A stretch of 64,000 bases of DNA from a bacterium (GCA_947465765.1 CANIAP010000003.1:39393-103392), one strand, 5' to 3'. Counted from the first letter of the stretch, positions 2,256-7,411 are shown. Program-made: numbers and translations. The notes: a model not told the origin generated them from the letters alone.

Positions 2256-2290
2256 AAAAAGGCCAGCAGTGATGCTGGCCTTTTTTTTTT
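2256..2290 (+). terminator. Rho-independent terminator of groESL, potentially bidirectional
   Basis: A5-GGCCAGCA-gtga-TGCTGGCC-T10. Confidence 0.95.
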
Positions 2291-2363
2291 GTTGGCTCAG
2301 TAAAAATGAGGCTATTTGTATTCTTGTTGACCGTACTCCATATTTATCGGATACTTATGGAGT

Positions 2364-3614
2364 ATGACCCATGAACATCAGTTTGATCGAATCCTTAATC
2401 CGAACTTGTCCCGAAGTTTTGTTATTTTTGGGCCTCGGGGTGCCGGGAAATCTACTTTTTTAAAGACGCTTTTAAAAGAGAAGTCAACGCTTGCGTATGA
2501 CCTACTGGATCCCAATCTTGACGATGAATTCCAACGTAACCCCAACGCATTAACGCAGAGGATTATGGCAGCTGTAGCGAATACTCCATTAAATCAATCC
2601 GCAATTGAATGGATTGTGATCGACGAAATTCAAAAAAACCCGAAGCTTTTGGATATTGTGCAGCATCTTATCGATACAACATCGCTTAAATTTGCCCTTA
2701 CGGGGTCCAGTGCCCGAAAGTTGAAGCATGGCAGTGCCAATTTGTTGGCTGGGCGGGCCCTACGCTATTCGTTGTTTCCATTAACATTGTTTGAATATGA
2801 CGGTCGGTTTGATTTGGATGTTGCATTGGCCTGGGGAACTTTGCCGGAGATATATCATTTAAACGACGACGAATTGCGATCGGATTATTTACGGACGTAT
2901 GCACTGACCTATCTTAAAGAGGAAATTTGGGCAGAGCATATTGTTCGCAATCTGGATCCATTTCGCAAATTCCTTGAAATTGCGGCGCAAAGCAACGGAG
3001 AAATTATTAATTACTCCAATATTGGCCGTGATGTTAGGGCAGATACAAAAACAGTCCAATCTTATTTCGATATTTTGGACGATACTCTTCTCGGCTTTTA
3101 CTTAGAGGCATACGATCATTCAGTCCGAAAGCAGCAGCGCCAAAATCCTAAATTTTATTTGTTTGATATGGGGGTTAAGCGAGCGTTGGAACGGCAGCTT
3201 ACACAAACCATATTGTCTGGATCTTATGGGTACGGGAAGGCATTTGAACATTTTATAATTGCTGAGATCTATCGCCTAAATGAGTATTTAAAGATGGATT
3301 TTAAGCTATCGTATTTGCGGACAAAAGATCAGGCTGAAATAGATTTGATTATCGAACACCCGAATCGTACGGTGGTTTTGGTGGAGATTAAGTCGACGGA
3401 ACAGGTTGATGAGCGTGATGCCAAGACATTGCAACGATTTTTACCTGATTTTCCTGGGGCTGTGGCACTTTTGATTTCAAGGGATATGGTTTCCAGGCAA
3501 ATTGGAGATGTCAAAGCCTTGCCTTGGCAAGACGCGTTATTTGCACTCTTTCCAGAAGGGTTAAAGCGATACATTGTAAAAACAGACTCTGACGGTCCCC
3601 CTGCGGTTACTTGA
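2364..3614 (+). CDS. AAA_14 ATPase with C-terminal DUF4143 (PD-(D/E)XK-like) domain
   Basis: Walker A GPRGAGKS, Walker B IVIDEIQK, LTGSS, LAGR, C-terminal EIDLI...VEIK. Confidence 0.88.
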   Translation: MTHEHQFDRILNPNLSRSFVIFGPRGAGKSTFLKTLLKEKSTLAYDLLDPNLDDEFQRNPNALTQRIMAAVANTPLNQSAIEWIVIDEIQKNPKLLDIVQHLIDTTSLKFALTGSSARKLKHGSANLLAGRALRYSLFPLTLFEYDGRFDLDVALAWGTLPEIYHLNDDELRSDYLRTYALTYLKEEIWAEHIVRNLDPFRKFLEIAAQSNGEIINYSNIGRDVRADTKTVQSYFDILDDTLLGFYLEAYDHSVRKQQRQNPKFYLFDMGVKRALERQLTQTILSGSYGYGKAFEHFIIAEIYRLNEYLKMDFKLSYLRTKDQAEIDLIIEHPNRTVVLVEIKSTEQVDERDAKTLQRFLPDFPGAVALLISRDMVSRQIGDVKALPWQDALFALFPEGLKRYIVKTDSDGPPAVT

Positions 3615-4326
3615 TCGCCAAAAACCCCTCAAAACACACATATTTCATCACGGTCATGACGTCGACAAACCCAGCGCGTTTGAGGAGATCCAGGTTGCCT
3701 TGGGTGGAGAACGGTTCCAACACCCCTTTGAGGCTGCGTGTTTTGCTGATGATCTCGTCGGGGGAGTAGCCGTTTTTGAGCTTGAAGTCGGTGTACAGCG
3801 TGGTGGCGATGTCTTGAAAGCGGGCATCTGCGCCTCGGACTTTTTCAAATAAAATCAGTGCACCGCCCCAGTTGAGGGCGTTATAGAGTTTGGTCAGGAG
3901 TTCTTGGCGGCGATGGGGTGGGACGAATTGAATGGTGTAGTACGCGACGATGAGATCTGTTTTTTCGTACTCAATTGAGCCGCAGTCATCCTGGGTAAAT
4001 GAGAGGTTGGGGATCGTATGGGAGTCGGTTGCCTTCTGGACCATGTCGATTTCGGAGTCGATACCGACCCATCGGACATTGGGCTTATTGACGTGATGGG
4101 TGGCCAGTTTTGCGGTTAATTCGCCAACCGACGATCCGATGTCGTAGCAGGTGGAATTGTCTCTGACGAAAAAGTCACTGAGCTCGCAGACGAGTTGGTG
4201 GCCTTCGTCGTAAAGGGGGACGGAGGTTCGGATGTGGTCGCTAAATTGATGGGCGGTTTCACCGGAGAAGGTCCATCCGGCATTGGGGGCGGTGAGGCCA
4301 TTTCCGACATTGGGGGGATTGGACAT
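3607..4326 (-). CDS. CmoA-like class I SAM-dependent methyltransferase / carboxy-SAM synthase family
   Basis: F..HIRTSVP.Y, YDIGSSVG, YYTIQF, GGALILFEK motifs; start moved to ATG 4326 because the longer ORF begins inside the palindrome. Confidence 0.8.
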   Translation of the reverse strand: MSNPPNVGNGLTAPNAGWTFSGETAHQFSDHIRTSVPLYDEGHQLVCELSDFFVRDNSTCYDIGSSVGELTAKLATHHVNKPNVRWVGIDSEIDMVQKATDSHTIPNLSFTQDDCGSIEYEKTDLIVAYYTIQFVPPHRRQELLTKLYNALNWGGALILFEKVRGADARFQDIATTLYTDFKLKNGYSPDEIISKTRSLKGVLEPFSTQGNLDLLKRAGFVDVMTVMKYVCFEGFLAIK

Positions 4327-4369
4327 GGTGGGGTATTCCTTTGGGGTATCGTTTTGTGGGGTTTCACTT

Positions 4370-4416
4370 CCCCTCTCTACCCACAAAGTGGGTGGAGAGG
4401 GGGCCGGCGGGTGAGG
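4370..4416. repeat. REP/MITE-like palindromic element
   Basis: 15-bp stem CCCCTCTCTACCCAC-aaa-GTGGGTGGAGAGGGG (one G-T pair) followed by GGGTGAGG. Confidence 0.75.
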
Positions 4417-4505
4417 TGAACATCGAAATCGACAAATTAAAGTTTGAGTATAGTGTAAACTGGGTACTTATTGGAGTTGCGTGTCTGGGATTGGGAGGAA
4501 ATATA

Positions 4506-6089
4506 TTGAATATTAACCCAGCCATTGGCGGTGGGTTTCCTGGGCAAGGGGTGCCTCGATCTGCTTCTACCGGCAAATCAACATCCGTTCCAGGGGGATC
4601 CTCGCTTGCTCAAGTGGGGGGATCGGGTTCTATCGCCGATTTCGCTATGCGTCCTCCATCTATGCCGGCTATTACCCAAGTTAGACCGCCATCCGGTCCG
4701 GGGGGTGCGCTCAGCACGGTTGAAGAACGGATAAAAGGGTTAGCGGATATCCTCGAAACATCCGGTATTTTTTCTGGGGTGATTTTGGTTCAGGAGGGAA
4801 CTCGGGAGCCTGCAATTTTTCCGGTCAGTTCAGATCAGACGCTAAGCCGTACAACCCCATTTAATATTTGTTCCGGTGGGAAAATGTTTACATCGGTGGC
4901 GATTCACCAATTGGCGGAGGCGCATGGGAGTGGGGGTGACGTGAATCAATTTCTGGACCAGCCGCTGTCGACGATTTTGACTGACGTCGATATTCAGGGA
5001 CTAGAATTTCCGGAGATGCCGTCGGGAGCCCTTAAGTCGTTGTCAGAACTCGGGGTGGCGGCGGAAGCGCTGAATGGACTGAAGTCGGTAACGATTCGGA
5101 GTCTTCTCAACCATACCTCCGGGGTTAAAGGTGGATTTTTTCAAGAGAGTGACCAAGGGAGGGGTCCATTGTTTGATCCATCTTTGGTTGGAAAGCATGT
5201 TTATTCAAACGTGGGATATAGTTTGCTGGGAGCAGTAGTTGAGAAATTATCGTCAAAGCCAGTTAACCAGTATATTCAGGAGATGTTGGAAAAAAATGGG
5301 ATTCTTGTGACTTCTAGTGATACCCCACTGGAGGATTCTCGTGGAATGGGTGGCCAGGTAATTTCTCCTTCGGGGTTAGCTCCAATCGCTGATATGCCGG
5401 CGCCAACAGATGCGTCTGGCGGATGGATTATGGACGCGGAAAATATGAGTCAATTTTTAGGGGCTGTTCACAGCGGAGCATTTTTTACATCGCCGGAGAC
5501 CACCCGCTCCGCCATGTTTTCCAACTCATCAGAGGCTAATCGGAACTATGCGTCCGGGTTTGATCGAAAGCAAGAAGGTCAATATATGATCACGGGCCAT
5601 ACCGGCTCATTTCCAGGACAGGGGTCTCAGAATTTTGTGGTTGAAAATACAGCAGATCATACTGTGACTCGGTTTGTGGTATTGCATAATAGCCCCCCTC
5701 GTCTCGGGATAAGGGATCTATTGGATGCCTTAAAAGGCGAGGTCGGCGAGACATTTTCGGCTAAGATTAATCGAGGTAAAGAGCGGGGCCTCATTGATCA
5801 TTATCTGAAGACTGGGGATATCGGGAACTCAATCGCAGCGACGAAAATATTTTTTGGAACGTACGAAAATCAGCCATCTGATCATATGACAGAGGTGAGA
5901 CATAAGGTTGGCACAAAACTCGTGAAGCATCTTCGGGATGCAGGGACGGGCGCCATTGATCGTGGGCAATTGGTGCAAGTACAGGAATGGCTCACCGATC
6001 CACTTAACGATTTTGCGAAATCGGATGTGAGTCCCTCTAGAGTCGAGGCGGCAACTCAGTGGATTTCCGATAAATTATCAGATATTTAG
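4506..6089 (+). CDS. Serine hydrolase (beta-lactamase class C/PBP-like fold) with low-complexity N-terminus
   Basis: SxxK (CSGGK), YSN (YSNVGY.LLG), GHTG motifs; TTG 4506 lies 7 nt after GGAGG. Confidence 0.8.
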   Translation: MNINPAIGGGFPGQGVPRSASTGKSTSVPGGSSLAQVGGSGSIADFAMRPPSMPAITQVRPPSGPGGALSTVEERIKGLADILETSGIFSGVILVQEGTREPAIFPVSSDQTLSRTTPFNICSGGKMFTSVAIHQLAEAHGSGGDVNQFLDQPLSTILTDVDIQGLEFPEMPSGALKSLSELGVAAEALNGLKSVTIRSLLNHTSGVKGGFFQESDQGRGPLFDPSLVGKHVYSNVGYSLLGAVVEKLSSKPVNQYIQEMLEKNGILVTSSDTPLEDSRGMGGQVISPSGLAPIADMPAPTDASGGWIMDAENMSQFLGAVHSGAFFTSPETTRSAMFSNSSEANRNYASGFDRKQEGQYMITGHTGSFPGQGSQNFVVENTADHTVTRFVVLHNSPPRLGIRDLLDALKGEVGETFSAKINRGKERGLIDHYLKTGDIGNSIAATKIFFGTYENQPSDHMTEVRHKVGTKLVKHLRDAGTGAIDRGQLVQVQEWLTDPLNDFAKSDVSPSRVEAATQWISDKLSDI

Positions 6090-6108
6090 GGAAGAATTTA
6101 AATCGCCG

Positions 6109-6136
6109 CCGAAAAAATCCGTTCCGCGGTGGCCTC
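6109..6136. repeat. 28-bp direct repeat, copy 1 (displaced pgeF 3' end)
   Basis: CCGAAAAAATCCGTTCCGCGGTGGCCTC, identical to 6817-6844. Confidence 0.97.
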
Positions 6137-6143
6137 TTTTTGC

Positions 6144-6473
6144 TTAGTTAGCGAGTGCTCTTTGAACGACATCGGGGGCATATTCCACGACCCTTAAAAA
6201 ATTCCTAGACGTCGCATTGGGTCGTTTTCGATGCTGTTCCCATTCCTGAATTGTACGTTTACTAACCCCAAAAAAAATTGCGAATTTTTCTTGTGATAAA
6301 TGAAGCTTAGTGCGTATTTCCCGAACATCAATTTCTTGAACTGGCTTTACGCGTTTGAATTGTGAAAGTTCGTAATCAGACAGTAGTGGGGCATCTGGAT
6401 CTGACTTGGCGGCCAGCTCAATTTCGGAGTCAGTCATTTTTTTCAATGCAGCCCAATCCGTTTTATCGTTCAT
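6144..6473 (-). CDS. Antitoxin: BrnA-like N-terminus plus XRE/HigA-type HTH
   Basis: TDWAALKKMTDSEI...DPDA followed by IRTKLHLSQEKFA.FFGVSKRTIQEWEQ.RKRP; overlaps toxin stop by 11 nt. Confidence 0.85.
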   Translation of the reverse strand: MNDKTDWAALKKMTDSEIELAAKSDPDAPLLSDYELSQFKRVKPVQEIDVREIRTKLHLSQEKFAIFFGVSKRTIQEWEQHRKRPNATSRNFLRVVEYAPDVVQRALAN

Positions 6474-6735
6474 ATTGTTTTCGTTCACTTTGACTAGCCC
6501 TCCTTGCTGAAATAATTCGCTTTTTGCGATCTCTTTTTGTCCAAACCACACAGATCACAATGATTATTTCTCCGTGAATGGCCCCTATTGTAATTCTTCG
6601 TAGCTCACCGTGGTTTTCGGACGACCATTCTAAACGGCTTGGATCATCAAGTGCCTGTGTAGCCAAAATAAAATCTATTTTATGCTTCTCGATATTGGAC
6701 AGTCGCTTTTTGTCATCCCACTCAAACGAGGTCAT
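6463..6735 (-). CDS. brnT: BrnT family ribonuclease toxin
   Basis: FEWDDKKRLSNIEKHKIDF and RIISARRA...ERKQY signatures; 90 aa. Confidence 0.9.
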   Translation of the reverse strand: MTSFEWDDKKRLSNIEKHKIDFILATQALDDPSRLEWSSENHGELRRITIGAIHGEIIIVICVVWTKRDRKKRIISARRASQSERKQYER

Positions 6736-6740
6736 TAGAA

Positions 6741-6780
6741 AATATACGCCGTTAGCGTATGTACGTCAATGGCGTATATT
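6741..6780 (-). promoter_or_regulatory. TA promoter embedded in an inverted-repeat operator
   Basis: Minus strand TTGACG-N17-TATATT; perfect 10-bp arms AATATACGCC/GGCGTATATT. Confidence 0.8.
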
Positions 6781-6805
6781 CCCGGATTTGTATGGTATTC
6801 AAACA

Positions 6806-7411
6806 TTACCGTACGCCCGAAAAAATCCGTTCCGCGGTGGCCTCCTTCCTGTACGAAAAAAACAAATCATTTCGACAGGACGTACAATATTCAGTGTCTA
6901 CAACCGTGACTCCGACGGGGCCAAATACGCTATGAAGTTGATCGAAATTGTGGCGGAATAGATCAAAATGAGCGTTGGCCACCGGGTCAATTTGATAGCA
7001 GGACTTGCAAATCCGAGGGCCAAACCAGGCATGGTAGCCATCGGCGTATCCCGACGCTTCGATTAACATTGCGGCGGTTTTCATTGTTATTTCTGATTCG
7101 GTGCCACGACGGCCAGCATGGATCGCCGCTTTCCATCCGCTGGGGTGGGTGATAATGACGGGGAGGCAATCGGCGGTTTTGATCAGCAACGTGGCCGGTT
7201 GATTCGAGATGATGGCATCGGTGTCGTCGATCCATAATGTCGATTTGGGGTGAACTGGGGTATCGACGATACGGACATTCGCCGAATGGGTTTGGTGCAT
7301 TCGAATGATTGTTGTGTAGGAGAGGTCCATTTGGGCCAATGCGGCGTCCAACGTGATGTGCCGTGTGGTCACAAAAATGCCGTTGGGGTACTGAAGTAAA
7401 TAGGGGGTCAT
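6806..7411 (-). CDS. pgeF: YfiH/PgeF polyphenol-oxidase-like (purine nucleoside phosphorylase) family protein
   Basis: HQTHS, TADCLPV, IHAGRRG, GPRICKSCY, FFSYR motifs. Confidence 0.9.
   Translation of the reverse strand: MTPYLLQYPNGIFVTTRHITLDAALAQMDLSYTTIIRMHQTHSANVRIVDTPVHPKSTLWIDDTDAIISNQPATLLIKTADCLPVIITHPSGWKAAIHAGRRGTESEITMKTAAMLIEASGYADGYHAWFGPRICKSCYQIDPVANAHFDLFRHNFDQLHSVFGPVGVTVVDTEYCTSCRNDLFFSYRKEATAERIFSGVR
6817..6844. repeat. 28-bp direct repeat, copy 2 (within pgeF)
   Basis: Identical to 6109-6136; encodes EATAERIFS on the minus strand. Confidence 0.97.

What the first reader, a model, noticed from the sequence alone, without database searches (positions are those of the whole stretch)
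6098..6847. 708-bp TA mini-island inserted in the last codons of pgeF with an att-like 28-bp duplication
CCGAAAAAATCCGTTCCGCGGTGGCCTC occurs at 6109-6136 and 6817-6844 (31 bp with one synonymous AAA/AAG difference). On the minus strand the in-gene copy ends pgeF as KEATAERIFSGVR*. The stranded copy reads KEATAERIFSAAI* (TAA at 6098-6100), which looks like the original gene end. Only brnT, its antitoxin and their promoter lie between the copies. This is the attL/attR footprint of integrative elements, but with no recombinase and a protein-coding target. It suggests a minimal selfish TA unit whose excision as a 708-bp circle would be penalised by post-segregational killing (inference).
Basis: partly seen in the sequence, partly recalled or inferred. 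Interest (0 to 1): 0.72.

Follow-up and report, generated by a model that had tools for sequence, protein, structure and literature searches.

The report
Toxin-antitoxin cassette between two pgeF tails
A small toxin-antitoxin gene pair lies at the end of the housekeeping gene pgeF between two copies of that gene's last codons, but the copies look like two different natural versions of the gene end joined by ordinary host recombination, not the footprint of a self-integrating element.

Summary
A 28-nt exact direct repeat (30 of 31) sits at 6109-6136 and 6817-6844. It brackets brnT, an HTH antitoxin and their palindromic promoter. This DNA has 41.5% GC against about 50% in the flanks. At least ten independent assemblies carry the same structure, so it is not a misassembly.

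A relative about 95% identical in the flanking genes (L035) lacks the cassette. Its pgeF ends GVI* and is followed 9 nt later by the convergent beta-lactamase-like gene. That matches the flank of the stranded copy, so the stranded copy is a true former gene end.

The in-gene end (GVR*, then TGTTTGAA) is not element-specific. It matches the other natural pgeF end, found in the congener G001 and in contigs L057 and L058. The "repeat" is therefore the 35 nt shared by two alleles of the pgeF tail. These alleles border a variable groEL-pgeF interval.

No recombinase, third repeat copy or family-wide att site was found. Related cassettes elsewhere lack such repeats. brnT is frameshifted in two sublineages.

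The best reading is a horizontally acquired cassette fixed by host recombination. It resembles "insertion with long target duplication" of restriction-modification genes. Raw-read tests were unavailable.

The parts
6806..7411 (-). pgeF/YfiH-family gene (201 aa). Its last 11 nt (6806-6816, GVR*) follow the right repeat copy.
   Evidence: Pfam PF02578, E 8.6e-32, above the cut-off. NCBIfam PgeF TIGR00726 scores 93 bits, below its 141-bit cut-off. Orthologues are 86-97% identical and share synteny with dprA and dxr.
6817..6844 (.). Right (in-gene) copy of the 28-nt direct repeat. It encodes EATAERIFS(G) of pgeF.
   Evidence: Present in all related assemblies. One synonymous SNP occurs in L032 and L034.
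6797..6805 (-). TGTTTGAAT directly after the pgeF stop. It is a remnant of the 'type 1' downstream context, where the start of the next gene (ATGTCTAAAA) overlaps the pgeF stop in G001, L057 and L058.
   Evidence: Alignments. BLAST homology to G001 runs 3 nt past the stop.
6741..6780 (-). Palindromic promoter/operator of the TA operon. The -35 is TTGACG (6769-6764) and the -10 is TATATT (6746-6741).
   Evidence: Inverted repeat I1. Promoter scan gives 10 of 12 matches. The hairpin folds at -20.5 kcal/mol, z = -4.7. The sequence is conserved in homologous cassettes of other genomes.
6463..6735 (-). brnT toxin gene (90 aa).
   Evidence: PF04365, E 7.2e-22, 77.9 bits against a 34.5-bit cut-off. 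Homologues at 66-73% identity lie in other genomic contexts. A 2-bp deletion is present in L034 and L056.
6144..6488 (-). Antitoxin gene (114 aa, GTG start). It overlaps brnT by 26 nt and has an HTH_3/MqsA-like C-terminal domain.
   Evidence: HTH_3 scores 25.4 bits against a 23-bit cut-off; MqsA_antitoxin is below its cut-off. TIGR03830 MqsA family gives E 3e-12, below its cut-off. The gene is called as 114 aa in other assemblies. The start position aligns with the ATG of homologues.
6137..6143 (-). 7-nt joint GCAAAAA between the antitoxin stop and the stranded pgeF tail. With the following GAGG it resembles AAGGAGG of the in-gene copy, so it may be a microhomology.
   Evidence: Sequence. Homology between cassettes ends at the antitoxin stop.
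6109..6136 (.). Left (stranded) copy of the 28-nt direct repeat.
6098..6139 (-). Stranded remnant of the 'type 2' pgeF tail. It reads KEATAERIFSAAI*. It derives from ...SGVI* with two point changes in this genome and one (SAVI*) in L034 and L056.
   Evidence: Compared with the TA-less relative L035 and with L034 and L056.
4416..6089 (+). Convergent beta-lactamase-family gene. Its stop lies 9 nt from the stranded pgeF stop. It belongs to the 'type 2' version of the variable groEL-pgeF interval.
   Evidence: PF00144, E 1.6e-23. It is absent from G001 and four family members. It directly abuts pgeF in L035.

Best explanation
A roughly 640-bp brnT/HTH-antitoxin cassette of foreign origin, running from its own promoter to its stop codon, now lies between two alternative natural alleles of the pgeF 3' end. 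In this genus the groEL-pgeF interval is variable. It comes in at least two versions.

- Type 1: pgeF ends ...GGGGTG AGG TAA TGT (GVR*). A set of small secreted-protein and other genes follows.
- Type 2: pgeF ends ...GGGGTG ATT TAA (GVI*). A convergent beta-lactamase-like gene follows 9 nt later.

The two alleles are identical through the last 35 nt of shared pgeF sequence and then diverge completely.

In the window the intact pgeF carries a type 1 tail plus about 10 nt of type 1 downstream DNA. Then comes the cassette, then a 7-nt joint, then the last 40 nt of a type 2 pgeF tail and the type 2 genes. The "att-like duplication" is thus two homologous gene tails brought side by side, not a target site duplicated by an integrase.

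The most likely route is inferred. The cassette first landed just downstream of a type 1 pgeF. A DNA segment carrying pgeF(type 1)+TA then recombined with a type 2 chromosome. One route is a homologous crossover in or upstream of pgeF plus an illegitimate (microhomology) join 40 nt before the recipient's pgeF stop. The equivalent route is a Campbell-type single crossover of a circularised fragment through the short shared tail. Only host recombination functions would be needed.

The product leaves pgeF intact, so the redundant tail is neutral and is slowly decaying. The TA pair itself probably works as an ordinary autoregulated type II module. This is inferred from the toxin-first layout, the overlapping genes and the palindromic operator in the promoter.
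For: Shown:
- A real, unique repeat, present in many independent assemblies.
- Insert GC of 41.5% against 51% for pgeF and 49% for the neighbouring gene.
- TA-less type 2 allele in L035, whose flanks are 93-100% identical to the window.
- TA-less type 1 alleles in G001, L057 and L058.
- In-gene tails of TA-bearing contigs are type 1. L056 matches G001 at 16 of 21 positions after the repeat and G000 at 14 of 21. G000 matches the type 2 tail at only 8 of 21.
- Synteny with G001 stops 3 nt after the pgeF stop and resumes at the groEL terminator. Different gene sets lie between, and none includes a recombinase gene.
- pgeF is a recombination mosaic among these lineages.
- Cassette homologues at 66-73% protein identity share DNA only from the promoter palindrome to the antitoxin stop. 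They sit at unrelated sites without gene-end repeats.
- dprA lies next door and comEC is present in the congener, so DNA uptake is plausible.

Precedent: restriction-modification genes inserted with 46-bp and longer duplications that overlap gene 3' ends, with no mobility genes (PMC2853133).
Against: - No contig with the postulated intermediate (type 1 pgeF + TA followed by type 1 genes) was found.
- The donor and the direction of transfer are unknown.
- The stranded 28-nt core has no substitutions, while the adjacent 12 nt have one or two. This could hint at constraint on the core, but the numbers are too small (about p = 0.09 by my own count).
- The 75%-complete assembly cannot show that no recombinase acts in trans. 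G001 has five tyrosine and two serine recombinase genes.
- One cassette relative lies beside a small serine recombinase gene (L072).
- Reads could not be examined.
Confidence: 0.6

Rival explanations
1. This is a true integrative mini-element. A circular brnT-antitoxin unit carries an attP made of a pgeF tail (the 28-nt core plus GVR*). It integrated into attB at the pgeF 3' end through a tyrosine or serine recombinase supplied in trans, which gave attL and attR. It could excise as a 708-bp circle.
For: - Direct repeats bracket exactly one functional unit and restore the gene.
- A single copy of the core lies at the empty site in L035.
- The repeat boundaries are sharp.
- The congener encodes several recombinases.
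- A related cassette sits next to a small serine recombinase gene in L072.
Against: - No recombinase lies in or near the unit or in the variable interval.
- No tyrosine recombinase was found in this assembly, though it is incomplete.
- Related cassettes at other loci have no gene-end repeats and no conserved termini beyond the promoter and stop.
- The core occurs nowhere else.
- The 'element-borne' tail is simply the other resident allele of the genus.
- All of the more than 24 contigs carrying the identical pgeF protein hold the cassette, so there is no sign of active excision.
Confidence: 0.15
2. This is insertion with long target duplication in the strict sense. Foreign DNA was ligated into a staggered break about 28-35 nt wide in a type 2 chromosome, and fill-in duplicated the target.
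For: - There is a cassette-sized insert with no mobility genes, and the duplication overlaps a gene 3' end. This matches the restriction-modification cases in H. influenzae and H. pylori (PMC2853133).
- Both repeat copies match the single copy in L035 (27 of 28).
Against: - The sequence just after the in-gene copy is homologous to the type 1 pgeF tail and its downstream gene start. It matches neither the cassette nor the target.
- A pure target duplication does not predict this. It would need a second event.
- The 28-nt exact length is below the 30-bp criterion used for that class.
Confidence: 0.1
3. This is an assembly artefact. Two strain variants were joined, or a loop in the graph was created at a short repeat.
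For: The source is a metagenome-assembled genome, and the repeat length is close to common k-mer sizes.
Against: - The same structure was recovered by different assemblers from different samples: NCBI MAGs, ENA scaffolds and Logan contigs, including short contigs that span both copies.
- Lineage-specific substitutions in both tails are consistent with descent.
Confidence: 0.02

Closest known systems
Insertion with long target duplication (ILTD) of restriction-modification gene units (Nobusato et al. 2000, cited from PMC3874152; Furuta, Abe and Kobayashi 2010, PMC2853133)
   Same: A small addiction-type gene unit is inserted relative to a conspecific. It is flanked by a unique direct repeat of tens of bp that overlaps the 3' end of a neighbouring gene. 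No transposase or integrase is present, the insert has deviant GC, and the mechanism is unknown.
   Different: The cargo is a type II toxin-antitoxin pair, not restriction-modification genes. The repeat is 28 nt exact (35 nt ancestrally), at or below their threshold of more than 30 bp. Here the two copies can be assigned to two different resident alleles of the gene tail, which argues for allele recombination and against duplication of one target.
Homology-facilitated illegitimate recombination during natural transformation (de Vries and Wackernagel 2002; Prudhomme et al. 2002; from my own knowledge, not read here)
   Same: Foreign DNA is fixed by one homologous anchor in a conserved gene plus one microhomology join. 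No element-encoded enzyme is needed. dprA and comEC are present in the genus.
   Different: This is not demonstrated here. The donor allele was not found. The join lies upstream of the end of the anchor gene, so a gene tail is duplicated and nothing is deleted.
Integrative elements that target the 3' end of a gene and carry a replacement end (tRNA- or protein-gene-targeting prophages and islands)
   Same: The gene remains intact after insertion, the displaced old end is stranded on the far side, and direct repeats flank the insert.
   Different: There is no integrase. The unit is only 0.7 kb. No family-wide att was found, and the replacement end is an allele already resident in the genus.
BrnT/BrnA type II toxin-antitoxin system (Brucella abortus BrnTA; Pfam PF04365/PF14384)
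   Same: There is a BrnT-domain toxin. The toxin gene comes first and overlaps the antitoxin gene. The promoter is palindromic.
   Different: The antitoxin is an HTH_3/MqsA-like protein, not the ribbon-helix-helix BrnA. Activity is untested.

Membership tests
BrnT/BrnA type II toxin-antitoxin | Toxin with a BrnT (DUF497) domain | tested here: met
   PF04365, 77.9 bits against a 34.5-bit cut-off; full-length match to profile positions 1-77.
BrnT/BrnA type II toxin-antitoxin | Cognate BrnA (ribbon-helix-helix, PF14384) antitoxin | tested here: not met
   The partner matches HTH_3 above its cut-off and MqsA-type models below theirs. There is no BrnA hit. It is a hybrid BrnT + HTH pair, and the same pairing appears in all close homologues.
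BrnT/BrnA type II toxin-antitoxin | Ribonuclease toxicity neutralised by the antitoxin | not testable with these tools
   Needs expression assays.
Site-specific integrative element (attL/attR) | Direct repeats flanking the insert that correspond to one copy at the empty site | tested here: met
   L035 has a single copy (27 of 28) that joins the pgeF body to the type 2 tail.
Site-specific integrative element (attL/attR) | Cognate recombinase encoded by or next to the element | tested here: not met
   Only two genes lie between the repeats. There is no recombinase domain in the neighbours or in either version of the variable interval. PF00589 is absent from this incomplete assembly.
Site-specific integrative element (attL/attR) | Same att core reused by related elements or at other insertions | tested here: not met
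   Related cassettes at five other loci show no gene-end repeats and no shared termini. The core is unique in the genome.
Site-specific integrative element (attL/attR) | Excised circular form and restored empty site within a population | not testable with these tools
All contigs encoding the identical pgeF protein carry the cassette.
Insertion with long target duplication (ILTD) | Insert present in one genome and absent from a close relative, with no mobility genes | tested here: met
   L035 compared with the window; no mobility genes.
Insertion with long target duplication (ILTD) | Direct duplication of the target longer than 30 bp (criterion of PMC2853133) | tested here: inconclusive
   28 nt are exact and 30 of 31 match. 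The two tail alleles share 35 nt ancestrally.
Insertion with long target duplication (ILTD) | Both repeat copies derive from the recipient's single target | tested here: not met
   The in-gene copy continues into a type 1 tail and downstream remnant. The stranded copy continues into a type 2 tail.
Homology-facilitated illegitimate recombination product | One junction homologous, the other a microhomology join | tested here: inconclusive
   The pgeF side is homologous and mosaic. The other joint, GCAAAAA|GAGG, against AAG|GAGG gives at most a 4-6 nt microhomology. The donor sequence is unknown.
PgeF/YfiH | Cu-oxidase_4 / PgeF family domain over the full length | tested here: met
   PF02578 is above its cut-off. 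The NCBIfam equivalog is below its cut-off, so this is family-level membership only.

The most novel reading that the evidence does not exclude
Small toxin-antitoxin cassettes may form a recombinase-free class of mobile unit. Each would travel with a short tail of a conserved housekeeping gene as a portable homology tag. It would enter the orthologous gene end of a new host by a RecA-type single crossover, leaving intact gene + cassette + stranded tail, and could leave again through the same repeat. This locus would be one instance, with pgeF as the tag.
Probability: 0.15. Interest if true: 0.7.

Novelty: new member of a known kind. Interest (0 to 1): 0.38.

Why it matters
How chromosomal toxin-antitoxin pairs spread without any mobility gene is poorly documented. 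This locus gives a clean natural series: two TA-less alleles, a TA-bearing hybrid, and decaying derivatives. The series shows a cassette trimmed to promoter-to-stop and fixed beside a core gene by host recombination, with a stranded gene tail as the scar. It also warns that att-like repeats at gene ends can arise from joining two alleles. Taken alone it is an ordinary event. Together with similar cases noted elsewhere in this scan, it could support a general route of cassette spread, parallel to the long-target-duplication insertions of restriction-modification genes.

Tried and rejected
- A protein-pattern scan of JGI metagenome contigs with pgeF found only distant relatives at 31-45% identity. 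The genome-contig scan added only G001.
- I searched for a third copy of the core at the groEL side of the variable interval, and in G001, allowing up to 9 mismatches over 33 nt. None was found.
- I searched five homologous cassettes at other loci for flanking gene-end repeats. None was convincing. One purine-rich 31-nt match at 71% identity in L039 and L040 was judged possibly chance.
- A terminator role for the core was not supported. The hairpins fold no better than shuffled sequence (z about 0), and the scan found no terminator there.
- Phage carriage of the toxin: no match in 50,697 phage records. Plasmid hits are all below 60% identity.
- I considered whether the empty site in L035 is an assembly skip across the repeat. 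I rejected this because its tail keeps the intact GGGGTGATT codons. The TA-bearing lineages have the decayed GCGG(T/C)GATT instead.
- I could not decide whether L035 never had the cassette or lost it. Loss could occur by recombination between the repeats or by allele replacement.

Full report
**1.

The 28-mer CCGAAAAAATCCGTTCCGCGGTGGCCTC occurs at 6109-6136 and 6817-6844. Extended, the match is 30 of 31, with 708 nt from start to start. No other copy exists in the window with up to 3 mismatches, against 0.00 expected from shuffles. None exists in the whole 1.2-Mb assembly with up to 5 mismatches.

On the minus strand the right copy lies inside a 201-aa PgeF/YfiH-family gene at 6806-7411 (PF02578). 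That gene ends ...KEATAERIFSGVR*. The left copy reads KEATAERIFSAAI*, with its stop at 6098-6100. This stop lies 9 nt from the stop of a convergent beta-lactamase-family gene that ends at 6089.

Between the copies lie three features.
- brnT at 6463-6735 (PF04365, 77.9 bits).
- A 114-aa antitoxin gene at 6144-6488 that overlaps brnT by 26 nt. It is of the HTH_3/MqsA type, not BrnA.
- A TTGACG-17-TATATT promoter embedded in a strong palindrome at 6741-6780 (z = -4.7).

The 680 nt between the copies have 41.5% GC. pgeF has 51% and the genome 48%.

**2. It is not a misassembly**

The identical pgeF protein is encoded on at least 24 contigs read from NCBI, ENA and Logan assemblies. Every representative shown carries the TA pair and the beta-lactamase-like gene in the same order. 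The same holds for the contigs that carry the exact BrnT protein. Both repeat copies are present in all nine loci fetched, including 1-kb Logan contigs that span both.

**3. Empty sites and two alleles of the gene tail**

Contig L035 (JGI 3300083096) is 93-98% identical to the window through dxr and dprA and 93-100% identical in the beta-lactamase-like gene. It lacks the TA pair.

Its pgeF ends ...GAGGCCACCGCAGAACGGATTTTTTCGGGGGTGATTTAA (GVI*). ATTCTTCCC follows, and then the reverse stop of the convergent gene. This is the flank of the stranded copy in the window. It has since picked up one change in L034 and L056 (SAVI*) and two in the window (SAAI*).

The in-gene end is not new either.
- The congener G001 has 88% protein identity and about 86% DNA identity in pgeF. 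Its pgeF ends GGGGTGAGGTAATGTCTAAAA (GVR*), and the next gene's ATG overlaps the stop.
- Contigs L057 and L058 have the same tail and downstream gene.
- TA-bearing contig L056 reads GGAGTGAGGTAATGTTTGAAT after the repeat, 16 of 21 identical to G001.
- The window reads GGCGTACGGTAATGTTTGAAT, 14 of 21 identical to G001 and only 8 of 21 to the L035 tail.
- L046, a 91%-identical TA-bearing lineage, reads GGGGTGGGAACATGTTTGAAG. It has lost the stop, so its pgeF ends GVGTCLKFI*.

Two alleles therefore exist. I call them type 1 (GVR*, then other genes) and type 2 (GVI*, then the convergent beta-lactamase-like gene). They share pgeF through ...TCGGGGGTGA and then have nothing in common. The window joins a type 1 tail, the cassette and a type 2 tail. 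The 28-nt repeat is the still-identical part of the 35 nt shared by the two tails.

**4. The surroundings**

Synteny with G001 runs through dxr, dprA and pgeF. It stops 3 nt after the pgeF stop and resumes at the groEL terminator hairpin.
- Between these points G001 has about 10 kb. This includes a histidine kinase, a response regulator, an aminotransferase and several proteins with no family match.
- The window has 4.5 kb: an AAA_14/DUF4143 ATPase, a methyltransferase, the beta-lactamase-like gene and the TA pair.

Neither version contains a recombinase gene, and there is no further copy of the core at the groEL border.

pgeF itself is a mosaic. L035, L057 and L058 share a 3' patch at about 7015-6860 that is only 68-77% identical to the window and 71% to G001. 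In another block (7205-7105) the window is 94% identical to G001 but 82% to L035. Homologous exchange with end points inside pgeF is thus common in this population. L035 and L057 have nearly the same pgeF but opposite downstream types.

**5. The cassette elsewhere**

BrnT homologues of 66-73% identity, paired with the same antitoxin type, occur in two genomes of the same order and in other metagenomic contigs.
- G011 (L036), after a lipoate-ligase gene.
- G006 (L039), after an ORF6N gene.
- L041, between an ABC permease gene and aroA.
- L071, in a TA-rich stretch.
- L072, beside a small serine recombinase gene.

Their DNA aligns with the window only from the promoter palindrome (about 6785) to the antitoxin stop at 6144. 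None has a convincing gene-end repeat. There is therefore no family-wide att site. The mobile unit is a bare promoter-to-stop cassette that turns up in mobile-element-like and chromosomal contexts alike.

Only 14 of 146 genomes of the phylum have any BrnT hit at E <= 1e-10. The congener G001 has none. Relatives named by their records place the organism near Candidatus Margulisiibacteriota.

**6. Mechanism**

Shown:
- The cassette is foreign.
- It is absent from close relatives of both allele types.
- It lies between a type 1 and a type 2 tail.
- No recombinase gene lies in or beside it.

Inferred: the hybrid arose by host recombination between a type 1 + TA allele and a type 2 allele. There are two equivalent routes.
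- A long homologous anchor in pgeF or dprA plus an illegitimate join 40 nt before the recipient's pgeF stop. GCAAAAA|GAGG against AAG|GAGG may be the microhomology.
- A single crossover of a circularised fragment through the short shared tail.

Such a product keeps pgeF intact, so it is neutral and can persist. dprA lies next door and comEC is present in the congener, so DNA uptake is plausible.

The strict target-duplication model does not predict the type 1 tail. The att model needs a trans recombinase and an attP that happens to be the other resident allele. Neither is excluded, and I give them about 0.10 and 0.15.

The idea that excision is penalised by post-segregational killing is untested. 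In L034 and L056, brnT carries a 2-bp deletion that removes the conserved C-terminal RIISARRA segment, yet the cassette is retained.

**7. Comparison with the known**

The layout matches "insertion with long target duplication" described for restriction-modification units. Examples include 46-bp repeats that overlap the 3' ends of H. influenzae genes, with no mobility genes (PMC2853133; summarised in PMC3874152). I did not find this described for TA pairs in four literature searches.

Earlier unverified notes of this scan report the same layout for TA cassettes in several other phyla. These pointed me to that literature. They are not independent evidence.

**8. Verdict**

This is a real and tidy example of a TA cassette fixed at a gene end with a stranded tail. 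It is most likely a recombination scar between two alleles and not an att footprint. On its own it is of moderate interest. It is more interesting as one data point for a possible general, enzyme-free route of cassette spread.

Noticed in passing
window 2289-6802, compared with L024:625-10611 (G001): The interval between the groEL terminator and the last codon of pgeF is a replaceable region. Congeners carry entirely different gene sets there: 4.5 kb here and about 10 kb in G001. Neither set includes a recombinase gene.
   Followed up: partly
window about 6530-6533; L034:3268-3272; L056: brnT carries a 2-bp (GA) deletion in two related assemblies. The toxin is truncated to 79 aa and loses the conserved C-terminal RIISARRA segment, while the antitoxin stays intact. 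The toxin appears to be decaying in some lineages.
   Followed up: partly
L057:3060-3075 and L058:1480-1495: A 5-nt tandem duplication (GGGTG GGGTG) at the very end of pgeF in two ENA contigs shifts the frame, so the gene ends GVG* (TGA). This is another sign that the last codons of pgeF are unconstrained and unstable.
   Followed up: no
window about 6860-7015, compared with L035, L057 and L058: There is a sharply bounded, highly divergent patch in the 3' half of pgeF. It is 68-77% identical to the window, where the flanks are about 95% identical, and 71% identical to G001. It suggests import from a distant lineage by homologous recombination.
   Followed up: partly
L046:360-400 (GCA_029981695.1): In a 91%-identical lineage, the pgeF stop just after the repeat is lost (TAA to ACA). 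The gene therefore reads 6 codons further into the spacer before the TA promoter (…GVGTCLKFI*).
   Followed up: no
L056:1324-2531: In one ENA contig the beta-lactamase-like gene is called as two ORFs (101 + 320 aa) and spans only about 1.2 kb, against about 1.7 kb here. It is probably disrupted.
   Followed up: no
L072:358-924: A 72%-identical BrnT/HTH cassette lies 220 nt from a divergent small serine recombinase (resolvase) gene on a short metagenomic contig. This may be a plasmid- or transposon-borne form of the cassette.
   Followed up: no
window 2364-3614: An AAA_14/DUF4143 ATPase gene lies in the variable interval next to a methyltransferase gene. Its function is unknown and it was not examined.
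   Followed up: no
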